From Chiloscyllium plagiosum (taxonomy: Eukaryota): DNA of 58,138 nucleotides. Shown piece after piece: positions 1,013 through 58,002 of this stretch. The stretch is from contig NC_057749.1 in assembly GCF_004010195.1 (NCBI RefSeq), positions 11,971,833-12,029,970 on the forward strand, in the 5' to 3' direction. How positions within the stretch are numbered: position 1 is the stretch's first letter; each line of letters opens with the position of its first letter. The notes beneath the pieces are model-generated. The model did not search any database and was not told where the DNA came from. It worked only from the letters and a program-made list of their open reading frames with translations. Both the position numbers and the translations under genes were made by a program.

Positions 1013-4000
1013 CCTAACTTTGGATCACCAGAGAAGGCTAAAGAATTCTTTGACTCTCTTAAATAGACTGTGAGACTTAAACTCTATGGATAATGATTTT
1101 ATTCCCCCCCCCCACCCCGTTTACCCTTTTTGCCTTCTCCATCTGTTTTTGTTCATTACCTTCTCCGGGGGGGGGGGGGCAGGGAGGGGGGGGTTATTTG
1201 CTATTCACACTGTTATTTTTTTATATAGGCCATGCGGCTTATTTGATTTGTATGGGAGGGGGGTTTGTTGTTTTGTCCTACCTCTTTTTTTGAGCGAGGT
1301 TCTTTTCTTCTGTCATCTTACTTAGTTTTCTAATAATTGCTGGGATTGTAACTTTGTAGTTTTATATATTTATATTTTGTATTATGCTTGCTAAATGCAC
1401 CTAGGTGTGGGTGTTGGTTTGGGGGTGGGGGGAGGTAGGTCACTCACTTTCAACTTTGGTTTTATAGAACACTCAAATTTGTCTACTCTATTTTATAATG
1501 CCTGGGCCGAGGGCGGGGCACTAGTTAGGAGAGGTTACAGTGGGGTTACTGACAGGTAGTTATGACCCCTGGGAGCAAGGGGGAAAATCTCCTTTCAAAT
1601 GTGTTTTGTATTGTTTTCTTTACTTAGGAATAGTTTTTAATTGTGTCAGTGTAAATGTCTTAAAGAATGTTTGCTTTTGTGAATTTTCCATGGTCTTTAT
1701 TCAAGGTGTTTTGGGTAGGTTTCTTCCTCCTGGAGGGGTCTCGGGCTTGCCTGGACGATCATGGCTAGCCATTTGCTAAGGCGGTACACCTGGAATATGA
1801 AGGGGAGTAATTCACCAATCAAAAGGAAGAAGATATTATCAAACCTTAAAAAAGAAAGGGTTGAGATAGCTTTCTTACAGGAGATGCATCTACTTGACAA
1901 AGAGCACTTAAAATTACAACAGGGTGGATTTGACCAGGCCTTTTTCTCATCTTTTTGTTCAAAAAATAGGGGAGTAGTCATTCTCATTCATAAGAATCTT
2001 CCTTTCAAAATCTTAAGTCAGATAAAAGATGAATCTGGACGGTATATACTAATTAAAGCCCTAATAAATGGAGAGGTGTATGGGAATTTGAATCTTTATT
2101 GCCCCCCCAGCAAAACCCTTCAAATTTGTAACGGAAGCGTTCTCCAAGTTGATGGCTTTTGGGGCACACTATACAATTATAGGAGGAGATTTTAACTGTA
2201 TTATGGACTCAGAGACAGATAGGATACCCAAGAGCACTATGAGTATATCTCTTAGATCTCGACAATTTGGGGATCTGAATAAGGAGCTATGGCAAGTAGA
2301 TGTGTGGAGGTGCCTTCACTCCCAGGGCAGAGACTTTATTTTCTATTGTAATCCACACAAGTCCATACTATAATTGATATGTTTTTTGCTCCCTCGACCC
2401 TTTTGAATTCCATATTGTCCTGCAAAATAGGTAATATAGCAATCCCTGATCATGCCGCAGTATATATGGAAGTTAAGACTAGGGACAATGGGACAGACCC
2501 CGACATTGGCATGTGGATAGCAAATTTATAAAATATTTTTTTCAGGAATTCAAAACCTCTTTGGAAATTAATTCAGGCACGGCCAGTAACCTGTCGACAA
2601 TGTGGGAGACCATTAAGGCTTATGCACGAGGTTTGATCATCTCATATTCTGTGACCCAGAAAAGACAAAAGGGAGAACAACAGCACCTGCTCGAGGCTCG
2701 CTTGAAGGCAGCTGAGACAACGTATGTTGATAGGTCCTCCATTACTAAGCTACAAAGGATCACAGCCCTTAAGACAGTCTTGAACATTCCACTTACCCAA
2801 ACAGCAAAGAGGGAAATATTATTTGCAAAGCAAAGACTATATGAATATGGTGACAAGTCTGGCAGATACCTAGCATATCTCACTAGGTACAAAAAGGCTC
2901 CTCAAGCTATCATGTCCATTCGGGAAAGTGCTGGTACTCTGACTTGTGATCGTAATAGGATCAATACAGCCTTTAGAAAGTTCTATTTTGAATTGAATAA
3001 ATCGCAGGACTATGGGGATAGAACTCAGAAGATGGAGTCCTTCTTTAAAAACTTGGCCTTTCCGGATTTAACCTCGGAGCGGGTGTCAATCCTGAATGCC
3101 CCCCCCAAAAACCCAGGAAGTACTCAACGCAATTAGACAGCTTCAGAGTGGCAAAGTACCTGGACAAGACGGATTCCAGGTTGAATTTTATGAAGATTTT
3201 ATAGGGGAACTGGCTGGTCCACTTATAGACATGTATAATTACTCACATAGTCAGGGCTGCCTCCCGCCTTCGTTGAGAGAAGCAAATATTTCTCTCACTC
3301 TTAAAAAAAGGAAAGGGCCCAGAAGATTGCTCATCATATCGACCAATATCCTTGCTAAATGTAGATTTAAAATCCTTTCTAAAACATTAGCATTAAGATT
3401 TGAGAGGGTCTTACTATATATCATAAAAGAGGACCAGACTGGGTTTATCAAGGGCTGTAGATCAACTAACAATATTAGAAGGGTCTTAATTACGATACAA
3501 GCCTGTCAACAGGGACGAATACTGGGGTTAGTTGTCTCCTTGGATGCAGAGAAGGCATTTGATTGGGTAGAATGGTCATATCTTTATTACACACTGGAAA
3601 GGTTCGGTGTCAGAGAGGTATTTTCTAAATGGGTCTCAATATTATACAATGACCCTAAAGCAGCCGTGATTACCAATGGTTTGGGTTCAGATAGCTTCAG
3701 TGTGGGTAGGGGCTGTCGTCAGGGATGTCCTCTCACACCTTTATTATTCACACTAATAATCGAACGACTAGCAGAAGCTATACGAACTGACTCTAACATG
3801 GTGGCTCCAAGGGTTGGTTCGGGTAAACATAAAATCACTCTCCATGCAGATGATGTCCTCCTTTTCTTAAGTAATCCTTTGATATCCATGCCCTGCTTAA
3901 TTCAAGTGATTAATCTATTTAGTATGTTCTCAGGCTATAAAATCAATTTAACGAAATCGGAGACCATGCTGTTGGGGGGTCTCGCTAGTGTATCCAATTT

Positions 4001-5861
4001 ATCAGACGGATCTTGCTTTCCCTTTCAGTGGTCACTGGAGGGTTTTCTATACTTAGGCATTTTTATCACCCCAGTATTTGGTCAGCTGTATAACGGCAAT
4101 TTTGTACACCTATAGAGAAAATAAGGCAGGACCTTCAACGCTGGGGAGATCTCCTAATATCCTGGTTAAGCAGAGTAGCTCTAGTTAAACTGAATATTCT
4201 GCCTCATCTCCTATATCCTATGAGAATGCTTTCTCTGATGTTACCGAGACTGGCACTGCGTAAACTACACGGCTGGCTTGGTTCCTTTATTTGGAATCGT
4301 AGACGGCTCCTTATCAAATTAGAAATGCTGCAGCTTCCACAAGCAAGGGGAGGACTGGATTTTCCAGACTTTAGGAGGTATCAGTTGAGTTCTTTATTAT
4401 GCTATGTAGCTGACTGGGTCTCTTGTGACCCGCAATCAATTTGGTTAGACATTGAGACTTCCCCTCATCAATCTTTTATTTTTAGATAAGATGAGAGCTA
4501 TTATGGACCATTGCAAAAACCCTATTGTACTAAATACAATTAAAGCCTGGAGGATAATGCGACAAGATGAGGATAACCTACAAAAAAACCTCTCCTTATA
4601 CTCCTATAGTGGGAGCATCTGGTTTTCAGCCAGGGCTGACAGATGCTGCATTTAAAATCTGGAGGTCCAGAGGTATCTCTTGCTTAGGGAACCTGTTTGA
4701 TGGGGAGGTTATGATGTCTTTTGAGCAATTGCACTAGTTGAACTGCCTAATGGAGACCTTTTTCGGTATTTCCAAATACGAGATTATATACAGAAGAAGA
4801 CCACGTTATTAGACAGTCCTTCCAAATTGGATAGGGAGAGAAGAATGCTGTGGCCAATGGGTCCACCCTCGGTCAGTATTCTTTATCACTCATTATATAA
4901 TGAGATATCGAAAGACAGGAATTGGGGTTTGAAATCCCTCTAGAAATGTGGGAGGATATTTGGGAAAATGCCAGAAAGATCTCTATTTGCAATAGAAGCC
5001 AAGCTATTCAATTAAAGATACTACATAGGGCTCATATAGCACCTGAACGACTGGCAAAATTTAGGGTAGGTACATCCCCAATGTGTCCTCAATGCAAAAT
5101 AGAAGTGGGCACTCTGACGCATTGTTTATGGACACGTCACAAGATCTGTAGATACTAAGACAGAGTAGCAAATGCTCTGACAGAAATCTTGGGAACGGTG
5201 ATTAGATTGGATCCAGTGTCTCTTCTCCTGGCTTTTCATATTTGCCCTTCCTGGATGTGCATGGGAGGAAACTATTTTCCATTCTCTCTTTTTGTGCAAG
5301 GAAAAATATCTTAGTGAATTGGATAGCTGAGGGCCCTCCAGGACTTTCGAAGTGGCACAGGTTAATCATGGAACATATCCACCTTGACTTCCTCACAAAT
5401 ATGGTCCACCAAAAAACTGAATTATTCTATAAAATATGGCAGCCCTTTCTGAACTATATCAATACAGATATTTCAGCCATATTGTCAAGGGCTTTTGTCT
5501 GGCTGTGGTAGTGGCTCTGGCTGGTCCGGGGGCCCTCTGAGGAGGAATCCTGTATAAATACGGGTTTTATTATGACTTGATGTTAATTCATTTTGAGTAA
5601 GTACTTAATTATTTAATTATCCTGTTATTTTTCGCTAGTAATGTAGAATATCCTACTTTATGTTTTGGTTGTTTGTAGGATAGATTAGTTGGGGGTTTTT
5701 TCCATTTTTTTGTGTGTTTTGGTTATTATTGATTTCTTTATATATATATATATATATATTTAATTGTATATTAGTGTTTATACTTGTTTGTATTACTTTG
5801 TAATTTTGTAAAAAGAAGGTTAAAAATGTCCTTATTTTTTCAATAAAAATACCTATTAAAA
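1013..5861 (+). mobile_element. L1-clade LINE: ORF1 C-terminus, ~700-nt spacer, frameshifted ORF2 (1761-5511), T-rich 3'UTR
   Basis: ORF1 end FGSPEKAKEFFDSLK* (stop at 1066). Endonuclease TWNMKG/FLQEMHL/GGDFN. RT LDAEKAFDWVEW, GCRQGCPLTP, LHADD. CPQC...HCLW knuckle. AATAAA at 5842. Confidence 0.92.
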
Positions 5862-20360: not shown

Positions 20361-20657
20361 GTTGTGGAGGTGGAATGCTATGTTGGTGGGATTAGAAAAG
20401 TGAAATTGTCAAACTGGGAATAGTTCTATTAACTTATAGAAAAGGTAAAATGTATTGAATTTTCAGAATGATCATTGATCCTCATTGTAAAGTTGACATT
20501 CATTCCCTTTCCCAAAGAGAAACTGTGTGGATCTAAATTCCCTAAAGAAACATTATCATGAGCAATCAAAGAATCTCCAAACTTCAGATCAATTGCTTGT
20601 CTTATCAACTCTCGCTCACAAAAGCTCAATAAAACTGAAAAGTATAGAAGTGACCTG

Positions 20658-20739
20658 GTGACAATTGAGTGATCCTTTGTCCTCCTCGCCTTATGAATAT
20701 TCCCAGGCACAGGATGAGAAAGGGAAACTCACTGGCCAC
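20658..20739 (-). ncRNA. miR-204/miR-211 family precursor; predicted 5p arm at 20705-20726, UUCCCUUUCUCAUCCUGUGCCU
   Basis: 5p arm matches miR-204-5p at 20/22 with the UCCCUUU seed intact. Loop GGGAAUAUUCAU and 3' flank UCAAUUGUCAC resemble pre-miR-204. The arms pair by eye. It sits in the intron that hosts miR-211/204 in TRPM1/TRPM3, about 90 nt from the donor. Confidence 0.9.
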
Positions 20740-20827
20740 AGGGACTTGGCAAACTTCTTCTAATGTTAGCGACGAGCTGACTCGCAGTGCACACGCCGGG
20801 TACACCTTGTGCTGAAAATTTCCTTAC

Positions 20828-23221: not shown

Positions 23222-23792
23222 AGGACACAGTTCCTGAAGGTGCTGACTCTCACTGGGATATAGTTCCTGAAGGTGCAGACTCTCACTGTGACATAGCTCC
23301 TGAAGGGGCAGACTCTCATTGGGACACAGTTCCTGAAGGTGCTGACTCTCACTGGGACACAGTTCCTGAAGGTGCTGGCTCTCACTGGGACATTGCTCCT
23401 GAAGGTGCTGACTCTCACTGGGACACTGCTCCTGAAGGTGCTGACTCTCACTGGGACACAGTTCCTGAAGGTGCTGACTCTCTCTGGGACACAGTTCTTG
23501 AAGGTGCTGACTCTCTCTGGGACACAGTTCCTGAAGGTGCTGACTCTCACTGGGACACAGTTCCTGAAGGGGCTGACTCTCACTGGGATACAGTTCCTGA
23601 AGGTGCAGACTCTCACTGGGACACAGTTCCTGAAGGTGCAGACTCTCACTGGGACACAGTTCCTGAAGGTGCTGACTCTCACTGGGACGTAGTTCCTGAA
23701 TGTGCTGACTCTCACTGGGACACAGTTCCTGATGGGGCTGACGCTCACTGGGATACAGTTCTTGAAGGTGCTGACTCTTATGGGGACACAGT
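23222..23792 (+). repeat. 33-bp minisatellite, about 17 copies (GGGACACAGTTCCTGAAGGTGCTGACTCTCACT)
   Basis: Directly visible; produces the 11-aa periodic ORFs in the track. Confidence 0.95.
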
Positions 23793-30945: not shown

Positions 30946-33391
30946 AAGTTCCTGGAGATGCTGACTCTCACTGGGATACAGGACATTGATATAAGATGTT
31001 GAAGACAAAAGGATAAAATCTGTTTGAATAATTTGCTCATTCAGAAATTCATTAAAAATGCTTGTAGAAATAGATTAATTGCGTCTTTCACCAATGAATT
31101 GAATAAATCCTTTAAAAGTTAAAAATGTGCACAATAATGGGAAGAGATGAAGAGAAGGTAACCAAATGGATAACTCCTTCAATAAGTCAGCAAAGCCCCA
31201 TGGGTAAATGGCCACTTACTGTCATGTCATTGTATAATGCTACATGAATGAATTTGAGATCAGGCATCTTTTTTTAAAAAATAAACATCTCATTTGTTCA
31301 TTTGATGAATTAACCTCTAACATTTGCTTCCTATAAATGTGTCCGTTATAATTCTGGAACACAAGTCTCGATGAATGCTCCACACTGCTTATAACTTGCC
31401 TAGTCCACATATTGACCACAACTAAGATGCCACATCAGTGACTGTTCCCAATTTATTTCTAGTCTGTTCTAACCAATGGCCAAAATGACTGAGTGGTCCT
31501 GTCCTGTCTCCCTGTGGCAGTTCTACAGTGGCCTCTGCTCAATACTTCGTAAAGCCCTGCATCAAGATCAGCAAGTCAGCTCATGGGTGAGCAGTATCCC
31601 AAGGTGAAGAATGAGAACCTCCCAAAATGCTGTGGTCACAAATGGTTTTAATATTTCACCCTAACGTAGTGTTGATCATTAAGTATTCCACATTTCATGG
31701 TCAGATTCCTGTCATTCTAAACATTCTAGGACTTATCATGCTTAGAGTTAAATATTCCCTGATCGATATCAGAAAGCAGTTCCAGAATCCAAATAGTTTT
31801 AAATGAGATTTGATTAAATTGCTTGGACAATGACTAATGTCTTTAACCCCTGTACTGACAACACGTTAAAGGGGAATGTGTTCAAACACATAAATTTGTG
31901 TTCAGAATTACTCACAAAGAATTGCCATCATAGGACATACTGTCATAAATCCATGCCAAAATCAGAAAACTGACTATTCCCAGCACACGGTTTCAGTTGT
32001 AAAGGAAGACAATTTGTCAATGTTCTTTTCAGTTTAGTGTTTTTCTTGTTTTGATCTCATTATTGCTCATATCTTGTTTGTGAAGAGTTTCTCATTCTTT
32101 TAGTTTGCTGTAAGTTACAAATGCCAGGAGTTCTCCGTACTGTTCACGTAATCGTGAAAACACAACACAGAGGCAGGTAATTGAAAATGTACTGCATGAA
32201 GGTTGGAAGTTGTGATCTTGGGGTATATAGAACATGCATCAATCTCTTACATGCCATCCCCCAGTCCAACAGCACATTCCTCAACCATCATAACCCCAGT
32301 TCCTCACTGCCACCCGAAACAAACATTTTTAAAAATCCATTCTTGAGATGCAAGTGTCACTGTCAAGGCCAGTATTTGTGTCCTGTTCCTAATTTCCCTG
32401 TTAATTGAGTGGTTTATTCAGGCCATTTCAGAGGGCAGATAGAAGTTCACCATATTGACCTGGAGTCATATGGAGGCCACACTAGGTAAGGATGACAGGT
32501 TTCCTTCCTTAAGGATGTTCATGAATCAGATGGGTTTTTATGACAATCCATGCTATGTAACAAGTTTTTATTTATTCCAGATTTTTAATGAAATAAAATT
32601 CCACAGGTTCTGTGATGAGATTTGAATTAATTTCTCCAGTATATTAGTCCAGGCCTTTGAATCAATTATCCAGTAACATTACCATTGTACAATCACCCCT
32701 ATGAGGTCTCTTGACCACCAACACCACATTCCCCACTCCCACCGTGCAATATATACATACACACACCTCCCCATCCAATATCTACACAACCATCCCCCAA
32801 AAGGGCCAGCGAACACTAGCCTCTGCTTATTTGGCATAAGGTCACTGGAATGCCTTCAGTGTTTCTGTCTTTCCCCCTCCCAATAATCACCTGGATGTTC
32901 ACACTTTGAACTTTGTCAGTCAGCTTTGCTGGAAATGTGGAGAATTGGATGTGGATAGAATTAGATAGTCAGTGATATCCTCAACTGTCAAATAGCCTGT
33001 TACCGATCACTTCCTTGGCATAACTGTACAAAGCACAAGAGAATATTAGGTGACCTGGAAATCAGACCCAGTAAGAGTGAGGAGATTGGGAAATAAACAT
33101 GCTCAGTTTAATTTTAAGTCAATGTTACACTTACACATGTAATAAACGTAAAAGGGCATGTATGATGCAGTTATCATAACAAAACCTGTCCCTTAATCAG
33201 ACACAAACTGGAGGAAAATTTAAGTCTTTAAATCTGTCTCAAATTATAAAATGGATGGATCTAGACCCCTCCCCTGTAATGGTCTCCTTAAGCTCGGTTC
33301 TACACTTGATTGATAGGTTAAGCACTGTTTATACACAGGATGATGAAGATGAATCAACAGCTTGGACTGTGACTACCACCGTGTTACTCAC

Positions 33392-33472
33392 CTTCTGTGA
33401 CCCAGATATCGTACGTTTAATGGAGGTGCGTTTCAAGGAGCCACTTGTTTGTTTCAAGGAGTTTGTCAGCAT
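33392..33472 (-). CDS. TRPM1: TRPM1-type channel, first coding exon (MLTNSLKQTSGSLKRTSIKRTISGSQK)
   Basis: ATG at 33472 with an in-frame TAA four codons upstream; 27 codons ending AAG|gtgagt. Resembles the mouse TRPM1 N-terminus (SSSFKRGSIKSSTSGSQK, recalled). Phase 0 into the next exon. Confidence 0.85.
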
Positions 33473-49547: not shown

Positions 49548-52050
49548 GGTTAAAAATCACACAACACCAGGTTATGGTCCAACAGATTTATTTGGAAACA
49601 CTAGCTTTTGAAGCACTGCTTCTTCATCAGGAGGTGGTGGAGAATAAGATAATAAGACACTGAATTTATAGCCAAATGAGTACAGTGTCATGGAGATGTG
49701 ATGGTAGATTAAACAATTTTAGATCAAGTTTTTCTTTTTTATAATGGGATGTGTTGGTTTCTGTTCTTTGATATGTAAATCTCAGAACTTCTTTTAAATT
49801 ACATTTTCAAGAAAGGTCTATCTTTTCTAACAATAAGTGCTATCTCAGCTCAGACAATGCATTAAGGTGTGAGGTCTGTCTGTGTCCCAATGTTGAGTTA
49901 GACTGGTTCTATTTCTAAAGTGGGATTTGCAGAGTTTTCCATGGATTCATGCAGTCTTTGAGCAAAATATAATGTAATTCTGCAAAAACAAATTCACCCC
50001 ATAAACTTATATGTGTGCATGTGTAGGAGAGACAGAGCAAGTGTGTGCTTATGAGTGCAAGTCCATGTGATAGAATGTGTGTGTGTAGGCTTGGTTAAGT
50101 TTGATGGGGTATATGCCGATGAGAGGGTGTGCACGTGGATGTGAGTGCAGTGGGTGTATGTGTGCGTATGTGAGCGAGCTTGTGTATGACAGAGTGTCTG
50201 TGTGGGTGTGTGAGTATGTAGGAGTGTGTGTGTGTGAGAGAGAGAATGTATAATACAGTGGGGTCACCTGTAGTATGACATGAATTCAAAGTCCTGATTG
50301 AGGCCATTCCCATGGGTACCGAACTTTGCTATCAGCTTCTGCTCAGACACTCTTGTGTTGTTACTTGTCCTGATGTCCACCTTGGAGGATGGTCACCCGA
50401 AGGTCCGAGGCCGAATGGCCTGGCCCACTGAAGTGTTCCCCGACTGGGAGGGTACACTCCTGCCTGGTGATTGTTGCGCGGTGTAAGTTCATCCACTGTC
50501 GTAACATCTGCCTGGTCTCACTAATTTACCATGCCTCAGGGCATCTTTGCCTGCAGTGCATGACATAGACAATGCTTGCTGAGTCTTTGCAGCCTACAAC
50601 ACATTATCAATGAGGATGAGCACCTCACCAGACCTTTCCCACGCTTCCACTTCTCACCTTTAAACAACCATCAAACCTTAAACAGATCATTGTTCGCAGC
50701 AAACTGCCCAGTCTTCAGGACAACAACACTGTCACCTCCCATCATGTATGCCACCAGCACTCATGTGACTTGGCCAATATTGTCTATCTCATACACTGCA
50801 GGTAAGGATGCCCTGAGGCATGGTATATTGGTGAGACCGAGCGGACGTTATGACAATAGGTGATTGGACACCGCCCAACAATCACCAGGCAGGGGTGTTC
50901 CCTCCCAGTCGGGGAACACTTCAGCTGTCCGGGCCATTCGGCCTCGGACTTTCGGGTGAACACCTTCCAAGGCGGACTCTGAGATAAGCAACAATGCAGA
51001 GTGGCTGAGCAGAAGCTGATAGCCATGTTTGGTACCCATGGGAATGGCCTCAACCAGGACCTTGGGTTCATGTCACACTACAGGTGACCCCACTGCACTA
51101 TACATTCTCTTACACCCACACACCCATGCAAGCCCTCTCTCATACACAAGCACTCGCTCACATGCACACACATACAACTCCCGCACTCACACCCATGCAT
51201 GCACTTTCTCCCAGGTGTATTCCCATCACACTCATACACACATTTAAATTAAAAATCACACAACACCAGGTTATAGTCCAATAGGTTTACTTGGGAGCAC
51301 ACTAGCTTTCGGAGTGCAGTTCAACCACCTGATGAAGGACCGGTGCTCCGAAAGCTAGTGTGCTTCCAATTAAGCCTGTTGGACTATAACCTGGTGTTGT
51401 GTGATTTTTAACTTTGTCCACCCCAGTCTAACACCGGCATCTCCAAATCATGACACACATTTAACCAAGCCTACACACACACTCTATCACATGCACTCAC
51501 ACCCACACACACACTCACATGCACACACTCACTCTGTCTCTCTTAAACATGCACACATATAAGTTTATGGGTGAATTTGTTTTTGCAAAATTACATTATA
51601 TTTTGCTCAAAAACTGCATGAATTCGTGTAAAACTCTGCGAATCCCACTATATAGAAATAGAACCAGTCTAACTCAACATTGGGACACAGACAGACCTCA
51701 CACCTTAATGCATTGTCTGAGCTGAGATGGCACCTATTGTTAGAAAAGATAGACCTTTCTTGAAAATGTAATTTAAAAGAAGTTCTGAGATTTACATATC
51801 AAAGAACAGAAACCAACACATCCCATTCTAAAAGATGGAAGACTTGATCTAAAATTGTTTAATCTACCATCACATTCCCATGACACTGTACTCATTTGGC
51901 TATAAATTCAGTGTCTTATTATCTTATTCTCCACAACCACTTGATAAAGGAGCAGCGCTTCAAAAGCTATTGTTTCCAAATAAATCTGTCAGACTGTAAC
52001 CTGATGTTGTGTGATTTTTAACTTTGTCCACCCCAGTCTAACACCGGGTC
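49548..52050. mobile_element. ~2.5-kb inverted-repeat Penelope-like element with a degenerate GIY-YIG region in both arms
   Basis: 49548-50574 is the reverse complement of 50780-52050, apart from a nested insert at ~51247-51455. The right arm reads NIVYLIHC...WYIGET...VGEHF...GLNQDLG with stops. Confidence 0.88.
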
Positions 52051-52678: not shown

Positions 52679-53252
52679 AAAAAGATTAAAAATGCTAGAC
52701 TGAAAGAACATAAAAGATCCCAGAAGACTGTAGCTGATGACAGAGATTGGAATGAACAGTCCATTTTAATCAGCCTATTCAGAGATGGTACTGCATACCT
52801 CTGGGGCAGTGGAACCTGAACCAAAGCCTGCTAGCTCAGAGATATGGACACTACCAATGCACAACAGGAGCCCAGCCTCATGGAGTGATTTTAAAAATTA
52901 GGCGACTTTAAAATGGAGGCACTAACTGGAAGCCAGTGTTTGTAAGTGAGCACAGGGGTGATGGGGAATGGGTTTTCCAACATTAAGAAAGGGGCAGTTT
53001 TTGGGGGTGGGAGTGAAAAACTGGAACACAGCCGGGCGAGTCCTAGGATAATCAAGCCTGAGACAGGGCGGAGTGCGATTGAATGTTTCAGTGAGGGATC
53101 AGAGACGGATTTGAAGGCTATAAGGCTCGTGCTCCTGGCTCAGGTTGTTCCCTTGCCTGAGATGTATCTTTGGCTCATTTTGTTTTCTGACTCTGTGTCT
53201 GGAGGATGTTTCGGTGCTGATTGCGTGTGTGTCTCTGCTGTTGTACAAAAAC

Positions 53253-53326
53253 CCAATGACGCAGAAGGGCTATAAATAGCCCAGAACGAAATGTTCTCAA
53301 CTCAGTGAAAGGGTCAGAAAGGGCGA
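53253..53326 (+). promoter_or_regulatory. Candidate enhancer: CCAAT/CRE half-site, MEF2/TATA, GRE and DR4-like element
   Basis: TGACGCA 53257; CTATAAATAG 53270-53279; AGAACG-AAA-TGTTCT 53283-53297; GGGTCA-GAAA-GGGCGA 53311-53326. All in non-repetitive, locally CpG-rich DNA. Confidence 0.55.
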
Positions 53327-55408
53327 GTATAAACAATACAGGCGCGCAGAAAAACAGTCTGAGCAGGAAAAAACTTCGAGACGCCGTAACCACAGTCACT
53401 GTCTGCATGTAACATTCACAGTTTTAAAAGCGAGATTCCTTCCCGCTCGGTGAGCTCTCACTCGGACTCTGCACGTCCCCTGGATCTTTAGGGCAGCTTT
53501 TGAATAGATATTTAACCAATCCTGACCATGTTCTGCCGTTTGCTTTACTCTGCATTGCTAACCAAGGCTGGGCCGCCCCCTGCCCCTCAAAGCCCGCATT
53601 TGGCCATGAGGTTCCCCACCCCTCCACACACAGGAATTTCCAATGCTGGCGATTCCACTGTAGACTCCACCATCACCTATTCTTGCCTCAGGCACGGGCA
53701 CACCTGACTCAGGGCAACTGTTGCCCTTTAAAACATACACAGAAAATATAAAACACAAATTAGCTAGACAACTTCTCAAAATTGGGTCAGAACTTTGGCC
53801 GCCACTCTTTGTACTCTGTTTAAGAGAAAACGGATGATTGAAAGCTGCACTGGTCTGTGCCACTAAATTCGGCAGGGAATTAGAAACCAAGCCAACAAAC
53901 AGACACGAAGAACCAGCTCAGTCTGCAAAACAAATGCTATCTTCAGGTTTCTGCGTGCAGACTTTTTTCTGTGAACTGTACACTTCATGGTCTGGTGAAT
54001 CATTTTACCCAGCATACTGAGTATGAGGTACAAACATTAGCCATATGACTTTGCCTTAACCATATTCTTTGTTTGAAAATAGTCTCTAACTTCTGGTAAA
54101 ACAACTTTCACTTATATAGTGCCTTTGACTAATAAAACGTTCCAAAGTACTTCAGAGGGAAGTCATGAAGCAAAATATGAGATCAAACACAAAAGGAGGT
54201 ATTTGGCTAAAATAATTTATTTATTGAGGCTACTTAAAGGAGCAGAACAAGGTTAAGGGCAGTAGGGAGGGTATACCAGAAGTTGTGGTGCAGGCACTAA
54301 TGGAACAAGTTAAAATCAGGTTGTGCAAGAGGTCAGAATGAACTGGGTGATGCTGGAGAGGCCGAGGAAGATAAGATGACCAAAAATGTCAGAGGCTGCT
54401 GACAGTTCTAGAAGGTTGAGGAGGGATCTCTGTCACAGTCACATGGGATGTCATGTAACTGTTAGATGCTAATGATGGCTCAGGGTAGTACATCTTGCTA
54501 CTAAGTATGGTGTTCACCCTCTATAAAGGTAAGCACAAAGTCTAGGCCCGAACTCCAGTGCGATACTTCAGGGGTGCTGCACTGCCAGAGGTGTTGTCTG
54601 TTGAATTTGAAGAACTGAAAGTTCCTCCCTGTGTGCTGACCTATGCACAACCAACATCACTAAAGCAGCTGTTTTTGGAATCTTGCTGTGTGCAAATTGT
54701 TTGCCATATTTCCTACCTGACAATAGTGACCACACTCCAAAGATATGTCATTAGTTATTAAATACTTGAGGATTTTCGGAGCTATTTGAAAGGTCATTGG
54801 GTGAGTGCAAGGTTAATATTGAAGGTCTATCAATTCCAGGCAGTGGGGTGGACAATCAAACATTCCACAAAACCTCTCTACTTTTAGCAGAATTTCAGGC
54901 AGTTTCTGTGGAACACTGCTGAAGGAAATAGGATTTAAATTTTACTTGACAATAAACACTTTCGTCACTGCACCAATCTTTTTCAAAGTCTCTCCTCAGA
55001 GCAGTTCTTATCATTAATCCCAGTCCCAGCTTTACAGTCTTGGACCTTAAACCATAAGATATAAGAGCAGAGTTCGGCCATTTGGTCCACTCCACCATTC
55101 AATGAAATATTCTGTAAACAACAGGAAGACAATTCATTCCCTTGATCGGATTTCACCATTTTAATAAATATGTGTTGATTAATCTCTCAATATCCTTCAA
55201 TAACCTTACCTAACAACCATTTTGGGATCGATACACATTACCATTTGTGCCTCCTGACATCATTCCTGAGGGGTCTGGCTCTAATTTTCAGATTCTGCCA
55301 ATTTTTCTGGACACAATTTCTCAATGTTTCTGCCTCCAATGTTCTCCCCACCTGCCTTCTTCCAATTTCTCACTACAGAGAAATAGAAGAAAAAGTTTGA
55401 ATCCAAGA

Positions 55409-55832
55409 TGCTGCAGGATCCACTGGTTTACCCCCAGAGAGGGTGCAGGATCCACATGTTCACCCCCCAGGGAGGATGCAGGATCCACAGGTTCACCCCC
55501 AGAGAGGGTGCAGGATCCACAAGTTCACCCCCAGGGAGGATGCAGAATCCGCAGGTTCACCCCCAGAGAGGATGCAGGGTCTGCAGGTTCACCCCCAGGG
55601 AGGATGCAGAATCCGCAGGTTCACCCCCAGGGAGGGTGCAGGGTCTGCAGGTTCACCCCCAGGGAGGATGCAAGATCTGCAGGTTCACCCCCAGGGAGGA
55701 TGCAGGGTCTGCAGGTTTGCCTCCAGGGAAGGTGCAGGGTCTGCAGGTTTGCCTCCAGGGAGGGTGTAGGGTCTGCAGGAGGATGCAGGGTCTGCAGGTT
55801 CACCCCCAGGGATGGTGCAGGGTCCACAGGTT
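55409..55832 (+). repeat. 32-bp minisatellite, about 13 copies (GGGAGGATGCAGGGTCTGCAGGTTCACCCCCA)
   Basis: Directly visible; period checked at 55571 and 55603. Confidence 0.93.
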
Positions 55833-57179
55833 AATCTGACTACTATGTATCTTTTATGAATGGTTTTGAGTGTATCCTCCTAACCAACTGCTCTCTACTC
55901 GTGGAGCCAAAGCTCCTTAATAGAACAAGCAGGTTTTAGACCTGATATGAGCTGGTTGACCAAGTACATTTAAGCCAACTCAGAATAAACTATCTGCAAA
56001 AATCTTCAGAATCTCTTGAATGTGTGACTCCAAGACACATACATTTTTCTGGAGGTCTGTGCATCTTTTGACAAAACAAATAGAAGCCCACTTCCAGGCT
56101 GACAGCAATGTTGCCAAAGATTTGGTGAATGATCAGTCAAGAGAGAATCCAGGGTTTGAAAAACAGCAACATCCACTCAACAAAATCTACTTTATGCAAG
56201 GGACTCACATCCCTCCATAAGCAGAATGACTAAGATTGCCCAGCACGAGACTGTGGTCACCCAATGCACTGTACACTGCATTGGGAGTGAATGAAGTCTA
56301 TGAAAAGTTGCAGGATTTAAAATAATTGAGCTAACAAGCCTCAGTGCTGTAATCTGGCTGTCCAATTCAGACTCTGACTTGTAAAGTTGCAAGATATCAA
56401 ATAGGAGGTGACAGGATCCCAGTGGAGGTTTCTGGCAGGTTTTTAAAAAACTGAGATTTCTAATTCTTGTAGTCATCAGAGGAAGGAAAGTTAACAACAG
56501 TTCTTGGAGCACTTACTTTGCAAATAGAGTCACACCTAAGTAAATGTGCAACACAATCAGGACAGATCAAAACTGAATTTATAACTGGGAGTCAAATATG
56601 GCATCAGACTGAGTAATGTTATTGTTGTAAATCATTTGAAATGCCTCAGCCCCTCATTGGCTGCCTGTTGACAATACAGCAGCATTGTCCTTCACTCAAT
56701 CTTCTCTTGTTTAGCCTACAGTATACACACCCTTGGCTTGTTCTGCCTTCTCCTGTTCATCCCGTGACTGAAGAACATTACTGAAGAGTCGATCCATGCA
56801 CTGAAGATAAAACTAAACATGCCTAACTTGCTCAGTGTCAAACATGACAAGTTGGCAGTGATTTAGAATGAAGATTTCACAATCTCTGGAGATTGCCATT
56901 TGGAAGTCGACATTGAAATGGGGGATTATGTGCCCTGGCCAGTTAACAGAAAATTACTGAACATTTTGGCGAGCTACCTGACGCCTTTCAAAAGCAGGTC
57001 ATGTATTGGCTGAAATATGAATATCTTCTAGGTCAAAAGTAGACTCGGTAGATAGGAAAGGGTTAAAGAGATAAAACCAAGCTCCTCTATTTCTGCACTC
57101 TCTCAACATCGGGTAAACAAATTGAAAGCTAGCAATGTGGGTGAGAACTTAAACACAGGGATCATCTTAACATGACAGA

Positions 57180-57635
57180 GCTGGCCTGTGACAGGATTAT
57201 TAGACTCGTCCTGCCCATGGCGAACGACACGGAACATGCCCCGCACCTACTCCATGACAAGCCGTTCCTTTCTCGCGTAACAGAACCAATAGAAGTGGAG
57301 ATTCTGAGACTGACGGTCATGTCCCGCCTCTAACCTGAGGCTCAAACTGTAATAAGGGCAGATCCATTTTTTTTTTAGCTACAATGAGACAAAGACGGAC
57401 TGATTAGTTAGTTGTTTTTTCCCTCCAAATGGTACTTAACCCAAAACTTAGCCCCAAAATTGATCCGGAGGAGTTTTCTTAAATCAGAGAAAGCAGATTA
57501 CGAGGCTGTGCAGATACTTTTCTGCATTGCAATATTTCCGGGAGTCTGGGTGTGTTCCCACTCGTTATCAAACAAAGGGGCTCGGTGTCTAGGATTTTCA
57601 GAGGGTCTTGTGTCCTCGTTATTGTCGCATGCGAA
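57180..57635 (+). promoter_or_regulatory. Probable KLF13 promoter/5'UTR (CpG-enriched)
   Basis: CpG density rises here; CCAAT at 57286-57290 and GC box CCCGCC at 57323-57328. Confidence 0.55.
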
Positions 57636-58002
57636 ATGGCGAGTGCAGCTTTCGATCGTTTTGCTGCCGAGTGCCTGGTGTCCATGTCCCGGACAGCAGT
57701 GGTCCACAGCCCCAGTCCAGCAGCCACTCCCCCCGGGGACTGTCAGGACAAAGGCACCGGGTTGCTGCTGGTTCTGGCTGGGATCCCGGCTCAGGGCGGC
57801 CCGTCGGCTGATGGCAGCCCGCAGGATGGGGCGAGGAGCCTGGCTACCGGGCACTGCGTCCCCCCGAGACCCAGGAGCCGGAGAGGCAAAGGCAGGAGCG
57901 GTCAGGAGCGGCGGCCCAAGAAGCACCAGTGTCAGTATCCTGGCTGCGGTAAGGTCTACGGCAAATCCTCGCACCTGAAGGCTCACCTCCGGACTCACAC
58001 AG
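57636..58002 (+). CDS. KLF13: Kruppel-like factor 13-type, exon 1 (Sin3A-interaction motif, basic NLS, zinc finger 1)
   Basis: Open 122-codon frame [26 protein letters not shown]...RSRRGKGR...[29 protein letters not shown] ending ACA G|gtcagt. VYGK plus HLRTH fits KLF13. Head-to-head with TRPM1, as in mammals. Not in the ORF track. Confidence 0.9.

What the first reader, a model, noticed from the sequence alone, without database searches (positions are those of the whole stretch)
53253..53326. Compact CRE/MEF2/glucocorticoid/thyroid-type module 4.3 kb upstream of the KLF13-type gene
Seen: within 74 bp of unique DNA are CCAAT plus TGACGCA, a perfect MEF2 site inside an inverted repeat (GGGCTA-TAAA-TAGCCC), a GRE with one mismatch (AGAACG AAA TGTTCT) and a DR4-like pair (GGGTCA GAAA GGGCGA; the second half-site is weak). 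Known: the paralog KLF9, next to TRPM3, has a conserved upstream GRE plus thyroid-response 'synergy module' a few kb from its TSS in tetrapods. Inference: this may be an ohnologous hormone-synergy enhancer at a KLF13-type locus, which would date the module to before the vertebrate genome duplications.
Basis: partly seen in the sequence, partly recalled or inferred. Interest (0 to 1): 0.75.

Follow-up and report, generated by a model that had tools for sequence, protein, structure and literature searches.

The report
Conserved signal-response element upstream of KLF13
A short, single-copy stretch 4.3 kb upstream of a shark's KLF13 gene carries good MEF2, cAMP and corticosteroid binding motifs and is unchanged in a close relative, so it is probably a real regulatory switch, but its thyroid-hormone motif is weak and nothing ties it by descent to the known KLF9 hormone-synergy enhancer.

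Summary
All motifs are at the stated coordinates. The gene is bamboo-shark KLF13 (100% match), head-to-head with TRPM1, whose intron holds a miR-204-family hairpin. The MEF2 site and the one-mismatch GRE are each the only such site in 58 kb. The CCAAT (168 sites) and the DR4-like pair (66 sites at two mismatches) are at chance level. The segment is single-copy in a relative about 3% diverged. It lies in a 248-bp block with no listed substitution where 7-8 are expected (P 0.003, or 0.01-0.07 with uneven rates), and it is the window's second most CpG-rich region. Best reading: a constrained KLF13 enhancer that joins calcium/cAMP (MEF2, CREB-type) and corticosteroid inputs. Descent shared with the KLF9 synergy module is not supported: its known GRE and DR4 match little beyond the consensus letters, and frog klf13 shows no distal upstream thyroid-receptor peak. 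Frog and axolotl klf13 do respond to T3. A rival reading is an alternative promoter, because the MEF2 site is also a TATA box. Deep conservation and function are untested.

The parts
53129..53372 (.). Constrained block: no listed substitution or indel versus organism B; the likely extent of the element
   Evidence: X12: no substitution listed at 53129-53376, first indel after 53372; X16 piece 53165-53340, 176 bp, 0 differences, 0 gaps
53137..53151 (.). Second, weaker GRE-like site (1 mismatch to a relaxed pattern; 9 such sites in the window)
53253..53257 (+). CCAAT; chance-level frequency, overlaps the CRE-like site
53257..53263 (+). CRE-like site TGACGCA (half-CRE with good flank; CREB/ATF-type)
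   Evidence: 4 in window
53267..53282 (.). MEF2 site (53269-53280 fits the 12-position SELEX consensus) inside a 6-bp inverted repeat; 53271-53278 TATAAATA is also a TATA box on the + strand
53283..53297 (.). 3-ketosteroid receptor element (GRE/MRE; also read by AR and PR), 1 mismatch, directly abutting the inverted repeat
   Evidence: receptor sharing is recalled knowledge
53301..53306 (+). Initiator-like CTCAGT; its A (53304) is 33 bp after the first T of the TATA box (belongs to the rival promoter reading)
   Evidence: initiator consensus recalled
53311..53326 (+). DR4-like pair: one good nuclear-receptor half-site plus a 2-mismatch half-site; probably not a thyroid element
53329..53335 (+). 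Forkhead-like site (common, 100 in window)
53450..53455 (+). Donor-like GTGAGC after 53449; would close a 146-nt first exon under the promoter reading; no joint seen
53001..53550 (.). CpG-retaining region (observed/expected 0.70; window median 0.23), second only to the KLF13 promoter
57151..57635 (+). Probable KLF13 proximal promoter and 5' UTR (CpG o/e 0.78 over 57151-57700; CCAAT, half-CRE and GC-box-like motifs at 57280-57335)
   Evidence: TSS not mapped
57636..58002 (+). KLF13 first coding exon (N-terminal repression motif to zinc finger 1), donor after 58002
33391..33472 (-). TRPM1 first coding exon; gene runs away from KLF13 (head-to-head, ATGs about 24 kb apart)
20654..20741 (-). miR-204-family hairpin in a TRPM1 intron (the miR-211 position; that name is recalled)
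   Evidence: 58.1 bits, E 7.6e-12

Best explanation
A roughly 250-bp, single-copy upstream enhancer of shark KLF13 that works as a signal integrator. Shown: the motifs, their tight packing, single copy, CpG retention, and no listed change across about 3% divergence. Inferred: MEF2 and a CREB/ATF factor bind side by side and keep the site open and responsive to calcium, cAMP and MAPK signals, as in immediate-early gene enhancers (recalled). Ligand-bound GR or MR binds the abutting palindrome (with possible help from the second site at 53137) and adds a corticosteroid input. The complex loops to the CpG-rich KLF13 promoter about 4 kb away. The DR4-like pair is most likely one half-site plus a chance neighbour, so no T3 synergy is expected. 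It resembles the KLF9 synergy module by position and by carrying a GRE, through independent origin or turnover, not by traceable descent.
For: MEF2 and strict GRE are each unique in 58 kb, yet adjacent. MEF2 fits 12 of 12 consensus positions. An independent run, X16, gives 0 differences in 176 bp. CpG o/e ranks second in the window. Single-copy depth. KLF13 is 4.3 kb away and TRPM1 19.8 kb. Mouse Klf13 is corticosterone-induced.
Against: Conservation was shown only against one close relative. With uneven local rates P rises to 0.013-0.068, and for the 74 bp alone it is 0.09-0.11. The longest-gap test without a fixed position gives 0.03. The substitution table was truncated (40 rows shown, 67 not), so invariance outside 53165-53340 is inferred from row order and rate arithmetic. 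No chromatin, binding or reporter data. Motif co-occurrence is not corrected for motif choice. The mammalian Klf13 GRE is reported in intron 1, not upstream. MEF2 and GR footprints abut and may compete rather than cooperate. Amphibian klf13 is T3-induced, so a thyroid input cannot be dismissed.
Confidence: 0.5

Rival explanations
1. An alternative core promoter. The MEF2 site is a compound MEF2-TATA box, with the CRE just upstream, an initiator at 53304 and a non-coding first exon ending at 53449, feeding KLF13 or a long non-coding RNA. The GRE between TATA and start would then modulate or block pre-initiation complex assembly.
For: TATAAATA at 53271, initiator-like A 33 bp on, donor-like site after 53449. 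Promoter-like CpG content. Compound MEF2-TATA boxes are functional in Drosophila antimicrobial-peptide genes (PMC3807682, passages). In run X19 (RNA is only a guess) contigs of the locus cover parts of 53510-55400 and nothing of it upstream; contigs give no strand or start, so this is compatible at most.
Against: Many MEF2 sites contain a TATA-like core, and TATA-type 7-mers occur 93 times in the window. The constrained block extends 140 bp upstream of the TATA and stops before the donor. No splice joint was listed at 53449 (very low coverage). The two annotated isoforms share the same first coding exon. KLF13 has its own CpG-rich promoter.
Confidence: 0.17
2. An ohnologue of the KLF9 synergy module: one ancestral GRE + DR4 enhancer, duplicated with the KLF9/KLF13 and TRPM3/TRPM1 block, giving T3-corticosteroid synergy at shark KLF13.
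For: Similar distance from the gene (human KSM about 4.3-4.6 kb). GRE upstream of a DR4-like pair, and the second GRE-like site and the DR4-like pair span about 190 bp, against about 180 bp for the KSM. The locus is paralogous: TRPM1 here, TRPM3 near KLF9. KLF13 is T3-regulated with log2 fold change 2.1 and 2.2 in frog and axolotl tailfin and 0.26 in tadpole brain.
Against: DR4-like pair at chance level, with its downstream half-site broken and no T at the third spacer position favoured in amphibian TREs. 8 of 16 letters shared with the mouse KSM DR4, and 9 of 15 (10 of 15 for the second site) with the human KSM GRE, mostly consensus positions (by eye). Frog klf13 has 3 weak TR peaks (2 inside the gene, 1 at 156 bp; scores 37-94) and none distal, versus score 550 at the klf9 KSM. 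Mouse Klf13 is not T3-induced. The KSM GRE was not found even at ray-finned fish klf9. Paralogous conserved elements are rare: 31 of 861 paralogous gene pairs in one survey. No MEF2 or CRE is mentioned for the KSM in the passages read ('mef2' 0 hits).
Confidence: 0.07
3. A real element whose main target is TRPM1, or both genes, since it lies in the shared 24-kb upstream interval.
For: Head-to-head layout. 20 kb is an ordinary enhancer distance.
Against: It is 4.5 times closer to KLF13. No MITF-type box was found in it (nearest at 50761). The motif set fits a broadly inducible gene better than a retina/pigment-cell channel (recalled).
Confidence: 0.1
4. Chance motif cluster in neutral or weakly constrained unique DNA, picked out after the fact.
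For: Many motif families could have been noticed. The 74 bp alone are not significantly conserved (P about 0.1), and uneven rates weaken the block statistic to 0.01-0.07.
Against: Three partly independent signals coincide: two window-unique sites side by side, a 248-bp invariant block and the second-highest CpG retention.
Confidence: 0.16

Closest known systems
Klf9 synergy module (KSM), tetrapods (Bagamasbad 2015, not read; described through bioRxiv 10.1101/2021.12.01.470809, PMC8724051, PMC9948451, PMC3346809)
   Same: A short element 4-6 kb upstream of a KLF9/13-class gene beside a TRPM1/3 gene; carries a GRE; locally constrained.
   Different: No convincing DR4. GRE and DR4 letters match little beyond the consensus. 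The core here is MEF2 + CRE, not mentioned for the KSM in what was read, where E-boxes are reported instead. The TRPM neighbour is head-to-head here and tandem at human KLF9 (orientation recalled).
CRE + MEF2 signal-responsive elements of immediate-early type (c-jun, NR4A1, PGC-1alpha, Arc SARE; recalled)
   Same: A half-CRE next to a high-affinity MEF2 site within a few tens of bases.
   Different: An abutting near-perfect steroid palindrome; no serum-response box noted; function untested.
Compound MEF2-TATA core promoters (Drosophila antimicrobial peptides, PMC3807682; Xenopus MyoDa recalled)
   Same: The MEF2 site contains a TATA box, with an initiator-like motif 33 bp on.
   Different: No start site is shown. 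A GRE lies between TATA and the putative start. The known coding exon is 4.3 kb away behind its own CpG-rich promoter.
Mammalian Klf13 intron-1 GRE (Cruz-Topete 2016, not read; cited in PMC7689098)
   Same: A direct corticosteroid input to KLF13.
   Different: Intronic, not upstream; no homology test possible.

Membership tests
Klf9 synergy module (homologue) | Lies a few kb upstream of a KLF9-class gene in the TRPM1/3 paralogon | tested here: met
   KLF13 at 4.3 kb, TRPM1 neighbour, miR-204 family
Klf9 synergy module (homologue) | Canonical GRE/MRE motif | tested here: met
   1-mismatch palindrome, unique in window
Klf9 synergy module (homologue) | DR4 thyroid response element of functional quality | tested here: not met
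   2 mismatches in the downstream half-site, 66 equal sites in window, no third-position spacer T. Motif-level test only.
Klf9 synergy module (homologue) | Sequence homology to the about 180-bp KSM | tested here: inconclusive
   Only the published GRE and DR4 could be compared, by eye: 9/15 and 8/16. The full KSM was not available.
Klf9 synergy module (homologue) | TR occupancy at the distal upstream site of the orthologous gene | tested here: not met
   Xenopus tropicalis brain TR peak table: klf13 peaks inside the gene and at 156 bp only. One tissue and stage, file cut when stored, searched by gene name.
Klf9 synergy module (homologue) | Synergistic T3 + corticosteroid activation in reporter assays | not testable with these tools
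   needs experiment
Signal-responsive enhancer (CRE + MEF2 type) | High-quality MEF2 site next to a CRE-like site | tested here: met
Signal-responsive enhancer (CRE + MEF2 type) | Sequence constraint relative to flanks | tested here: met
   0 of about 7-8 expected substitutions in 248 bp, one close relative only
Signal-responsive enhancer (CRE + MEF2 type) | Deep conservation across chondrichthyans or gnathostomes | not testable with these tools
   no vertebrate genome collection; run X19 does not cover the site
Signal-responsive enhancer (CRE + MEF2 type) | Open chromatin and orientation-independent activation | not testable with these tools
   needs ATAC and reporter data
MEF2-TATA core promoter | TATA box with initiator about 30 bp downstream | tested here: met
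   33-bp spacing, at the long end of the usual range (recalled)
MEF2-TATA core promoter | Mapped transcription start and spliced first exon | tested here: inconclusive
   8 raw reads laid on 2.7 kb, none on the element, no joint
Interspersed repeat or solo LTR | Multiple genomic copies | tested here: not met
   single-copy depth at >=80% identity in run X12; no copy in the window
KLF13 orthologue (target gene) | Protein identity and TRPM1 synteny | tested here: met

The most novel reading that the evidence does not exclude
The 250-bp block is the KLF13-side descendant of the enhancer that became the tetrapod KLF9 synergy module. Sharks would have kept an upstream corticosteroid element with a degenerate DR4, built around a MEF2-TATA/CRE core, while mammalian KLF13 lost it. 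That would date hormone-integrating control of KLF9/13 to before the vertebrate genome duplications and explain why amphibian klf13 still responds to T3.
Probability: 0.07. Interest if true: 0.72.

Novelty: new member of a known kind. Interest (0 to 1): 0.32.

Why it matters
If the best reading holds, it is a compact, testable candidate for direct corticosteroid and calcium/cAMP control of KLF13 in a cartilaginous fish. It would suggest that steroid inducibility of KLF9/13 genes is old while the sites that deliver it turn over. That is useful but an ordinary kind of element. If it proved homologous to the KLF9 synergy module, it would be one of few paralogous enhancers with a known hormonal function and would date thyroid-corticosteroid synergy to before the genome duplications. 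The evidence for that is thin.

Tried and rejected
Own genome not held. A MEF2+GRE spaced pattern in metagenome contigs gave 3 hits, all low-GC chance matches with no similarity beyond the pattern. Run search: no RNA holder listed; this is no evidence either way. Raw single-cell run X21 (about 2% read) laid only 8 reads on 2.7 kb, none on the element: uninformative. Only 4 of 24 listed runs were laid, on 52690-55400, so the KLF13 start was not examined. Structured-RNA idea for 53240-53500 rejected: z = -0.94, and no Rfam hit there. Interspersed-repeat or solo-LTR idea rejected at >=80% identity; a very old exapted element is not excluded. PDB search could not separate TRPM1 from TRPM3 (2 of 3 exons narrowly favoured TRPM1); the protein search did (11 of 12 hits named TRPM1-type, 1 unnamed). 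Earlier scan findings: nothing relevant in 5 look-ups. The primary KSM paper was not held. Supplementary figures holding the KLF9 GRE sequences and factor tracks are pictures and gave no text. A correction of the motif-cluster probability for the choice of motif families was not obtained, so that probability stays uncorrected. Searches that found no description of this element or of a paralogous KLF9/KLF13 enhancer: (listings only; open-licence library, most subscription papers missing).

Full report
Locus. The reading frame from 57636 translates to a 122-residue stretch. It is 100% identical to the protein annotated Krueppel-like factor 13 isoform X1 of Chiloscyllium plagiosum, and the next named hits are KLF13 of other sharks. 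Its neighbour on the minus strand is a TRPM gene. Five exon frames at 16.5-23.1 kb match the TRPM SLOG domain (5 of 6 exon frames scanned). The sixth, at 27.1 kb, finds shark TRPM1 proteins at 75-88% identity, with 11 of 12 hits named TRPM1-type. The first coding exon at 33391-33472 matches their N-termini. A miR-204-family hairpin lies in an intron at 20654-20741. TRPM1 and KLF13 are therefore head-to-head, about 24 kb apart, and the element lies 4,346 bp from the KLF13 ATG and 19,818 bp from the TRPM1 ATG.

Observation. Over both strands of the window the exact MEF2 core occurs once, the strict GRE at one mismatch once, the CRE-type 7-mer 4 times, CCAAT 168 times, and DR4 at two mismatches 66 times (11 at one mismatch, none of them here) (patterns recalled). 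The chance of a site within 74 bp of a fixed point is 0.0025 for MEF2, 0.010 for the CRE-type, 0.15 for the DR4-like pair and 0.35 for CCAAT. These values are post hoc and uncorrected for the choice of motif families. Positions 53269-53280 fit all 12 positions of the SELEX MEF2A consensus quoted in PMC3807682 (passages), which accounts for most of the inverted repeat. Additional features: a second GRE-like site at 53137, a forkhead-like site at 53329, and the fact that 53271-53278 is also a TATA box with an initiator-like A 33 bp on and a donor-like site after 53449.

Is it unique and constrained? There is no second copy in the window. Four of 24 listed runs were laid on 52690-55400. In DNA run X12 (organism B) one contig spans 52690-55080 with 69 substitutions in 2,391 bp (2.9%). 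Depth over 53054-53508 is a flat 14.1, against about 1,400-2,000 over three repeats nearby, so the element is not an interspersed repeat at 80% identity or more. Listed substitutions number 13 in 52690-53128, none in 53129-53376 and 16 in 53377-53878. The table showed 40 rows and withheld 67. The 40 X12 substitutions not among the 29 above would give 3.3% over 53879-55080, in line with the flanks, so none need be hidden in the block. Independently, a contig of run X16 (also organism B) matches 53165-53340 with 0 differences and 0 gaps. Expected substitutions in 248 bp are 7.2-8.0. The longest gap anywhere gives 0.03, and the 74 bp alone give 0.09-0.11. CpG observed/expected is 0.70 at 53001-53550, second to the KLF13 promoter (0.78) and far above the window median of 0.23. 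Together these make a real regulatory element likely, but the comparison reaches only one close relative. Run X19 (organism C, about 4% diverged) does not cover the element.

How it most likely works. Shown: motifs, packing, single copy, CpG retention, local constraint. Inferred, from recalled knowledge of CRE+MEF2 elements: MEF2 and a CREB/ATF factor hold the site open and pass on calcium, cAMP and MAPK signals; GR or MR on the abutting palindrome adds a corticosteroid input; the element contacts the KLF13 promoter 4 kb away. Mouse Klf13 is induced by corticosterone with or without T3 (PMC6660079, passages), and a paper introduction places its known GRE in intron 1 (PMC7689098, passages). The same palindrome is read by androgen and progesterone receptors (recalled), so the hormone is not fixed by sequence. 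Confidence 0.5.

The KLF9 synergy-module claim. The KSM is about 180 bp, conserved among tetrapods, with a functional GRE and TRE (bioRxiv 10.1101/2021.12.01.470809, abstract, introduction and passages). The primary paper was not held. In favour of a link: a similar distance, a paralogous TRPM neighbour (legend), and T3 regulation of KLF13 in frog and axolotl tailfin (log2 fold change 2.1 and 2.2; PMC6454024, one passage and supplement rows) and weakly in tadpole brain (0.26, padj 0.018; PMC10310023 supplement). Against: the DR4-like pair is at chance level and lacks the third-position spacer T favoured in amphibian TREs (PMC9937655, passages). It shares 8 of 16 letters with the mouse KSM DR4 (PMC3346809, Table 2 passage). 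The GRE shares 9 of 15 with the human KSM GRE, and the second site 10 of 15 (PMC9948451, Table 1 passage). These comparisons were made by eye and fall mostly on consensus positions. In the frog brain TR peak table klf9 has 5 peaks, including one of score 550 at 5,263 bp, while klf13 has 3 weak peaks, two inside the gene and one at 156 bp (one tissue and stage, file cut when stored, searched by gene name). Mouse Klf13 appears unaffected by T3, and a review states that thyroid regulation of KLF13 had not been reported (PMC10705314, passages). The KSM GRE was not identified at ray-finned fish klf9, although putative sites exist there (PMC8724051, passages). Paralogous conserved elements were found for 31 of 861 paralogous gene pairs (PMC3595034, passages). 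That human TRPM3 lies in tandem with KLF9, unlike the head-to-head layout here, is recalled and comes from no call. It would imply a rearrangement upstream of one paralogue. I put ohnology at 0.07.

Other rivals. An alternative MEF2-TATA promoter (0.17) fits the geometry and CpG content, and such compound boxes are functional in Drosophila. But no start or splice joint was seen at very low coverage, and both annotated isoforms share the first coding exon. A TRPM1 or shared enhancer (0.10) and a chance cluster (0.16) remain open.

Literature status. Eight searches (listings only) found no description of this element or of a paralogous KLF9/KLF13 enhancer; a ninth served to find a KLF9 paper. 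Also consulted by passages without direct bearing: PMC7949084 (main-text passages and the supplement text; its sequence figures are pictures), PMC10024234 (no mention of Klf13) and PMC13682713. Six supplement files of PMC6660079 and one of PMC10310023 were not searched, the figure supplements of PMC9948451 that show the extended KSM were not held, and bioRxiv supplements are closed. These could bear on the KSM comparison.

Verdict. This is probably a real, previously unremarked signal-responsive element of shark KLF13, of a known kind. The thyroid and pre-duplication claims are unsupported but not excluded. Interest 0.32.

Noticed in passing
window 53373-53395 and after 53496: Organism B carries a 27-bp insertion after 53496 whose reverse complement resembles window 53373-53395 (about 20 of 23 aligned letters by eye, two short gaps). 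So B has a roughly 100-bp-spaced inverted repeat just downstream of the constrained block and the window keeps one arm. Polarity unknown.
   Followed up: partly
window 57944-57956: An internal splice donor inside zinc finger 1 explains KLF13 isoform X2, which lacks 18 residues of finger 1. The same isoform is annotated in two carpet sharks and would bind DNA with two fingers only.
   Followed up: partly
window 20654-20741 (-): miR-204-family hairpin in a TRPM1 intron.
   Followed up: yes
window 53510-55400: Run X19 (RNA only a guess) has low-depth contigs across much of the intergenic stretch between the element and KLF13, but none of the locus upstream of it. This could be divergent or read-through transcription, or DNA carry-over.
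   Followed up: no
window 53570-53712: A GC-box-like site (53573) and an AP-1 site (53705; 8 in window) lie just downstream of the block, in DNA that does vary between species.
   Followed up: no
window 55412-55798 and 23223-23792: Two minisatellites, periods 32 bp (11.5 copies) and 33 bp (17.3 copies); the first sits between the element and KLF13, the second in a TRPM1 intron.
   Followed up: no
window 1761-4115: Broken frames that look like an L1/Tx1-type LINE (endonuclease and reverse transcriptase-like, judged by eye); many CR1/L2-like fragments elsewhere. About 29% of the window is repeated within itself.
   Followed up: no
human KLF9 P2 ChIP primer, PMC7949084 supplement: The forward primer for the second KLF9 GR site contains a MEF2-like or forkhead-like A/T-rich motif with one mismatch (seen by eye). 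If MEF2 binds there, a MEF2 + GRE pairing also exists upstream of KLF9.
   Followed up: no
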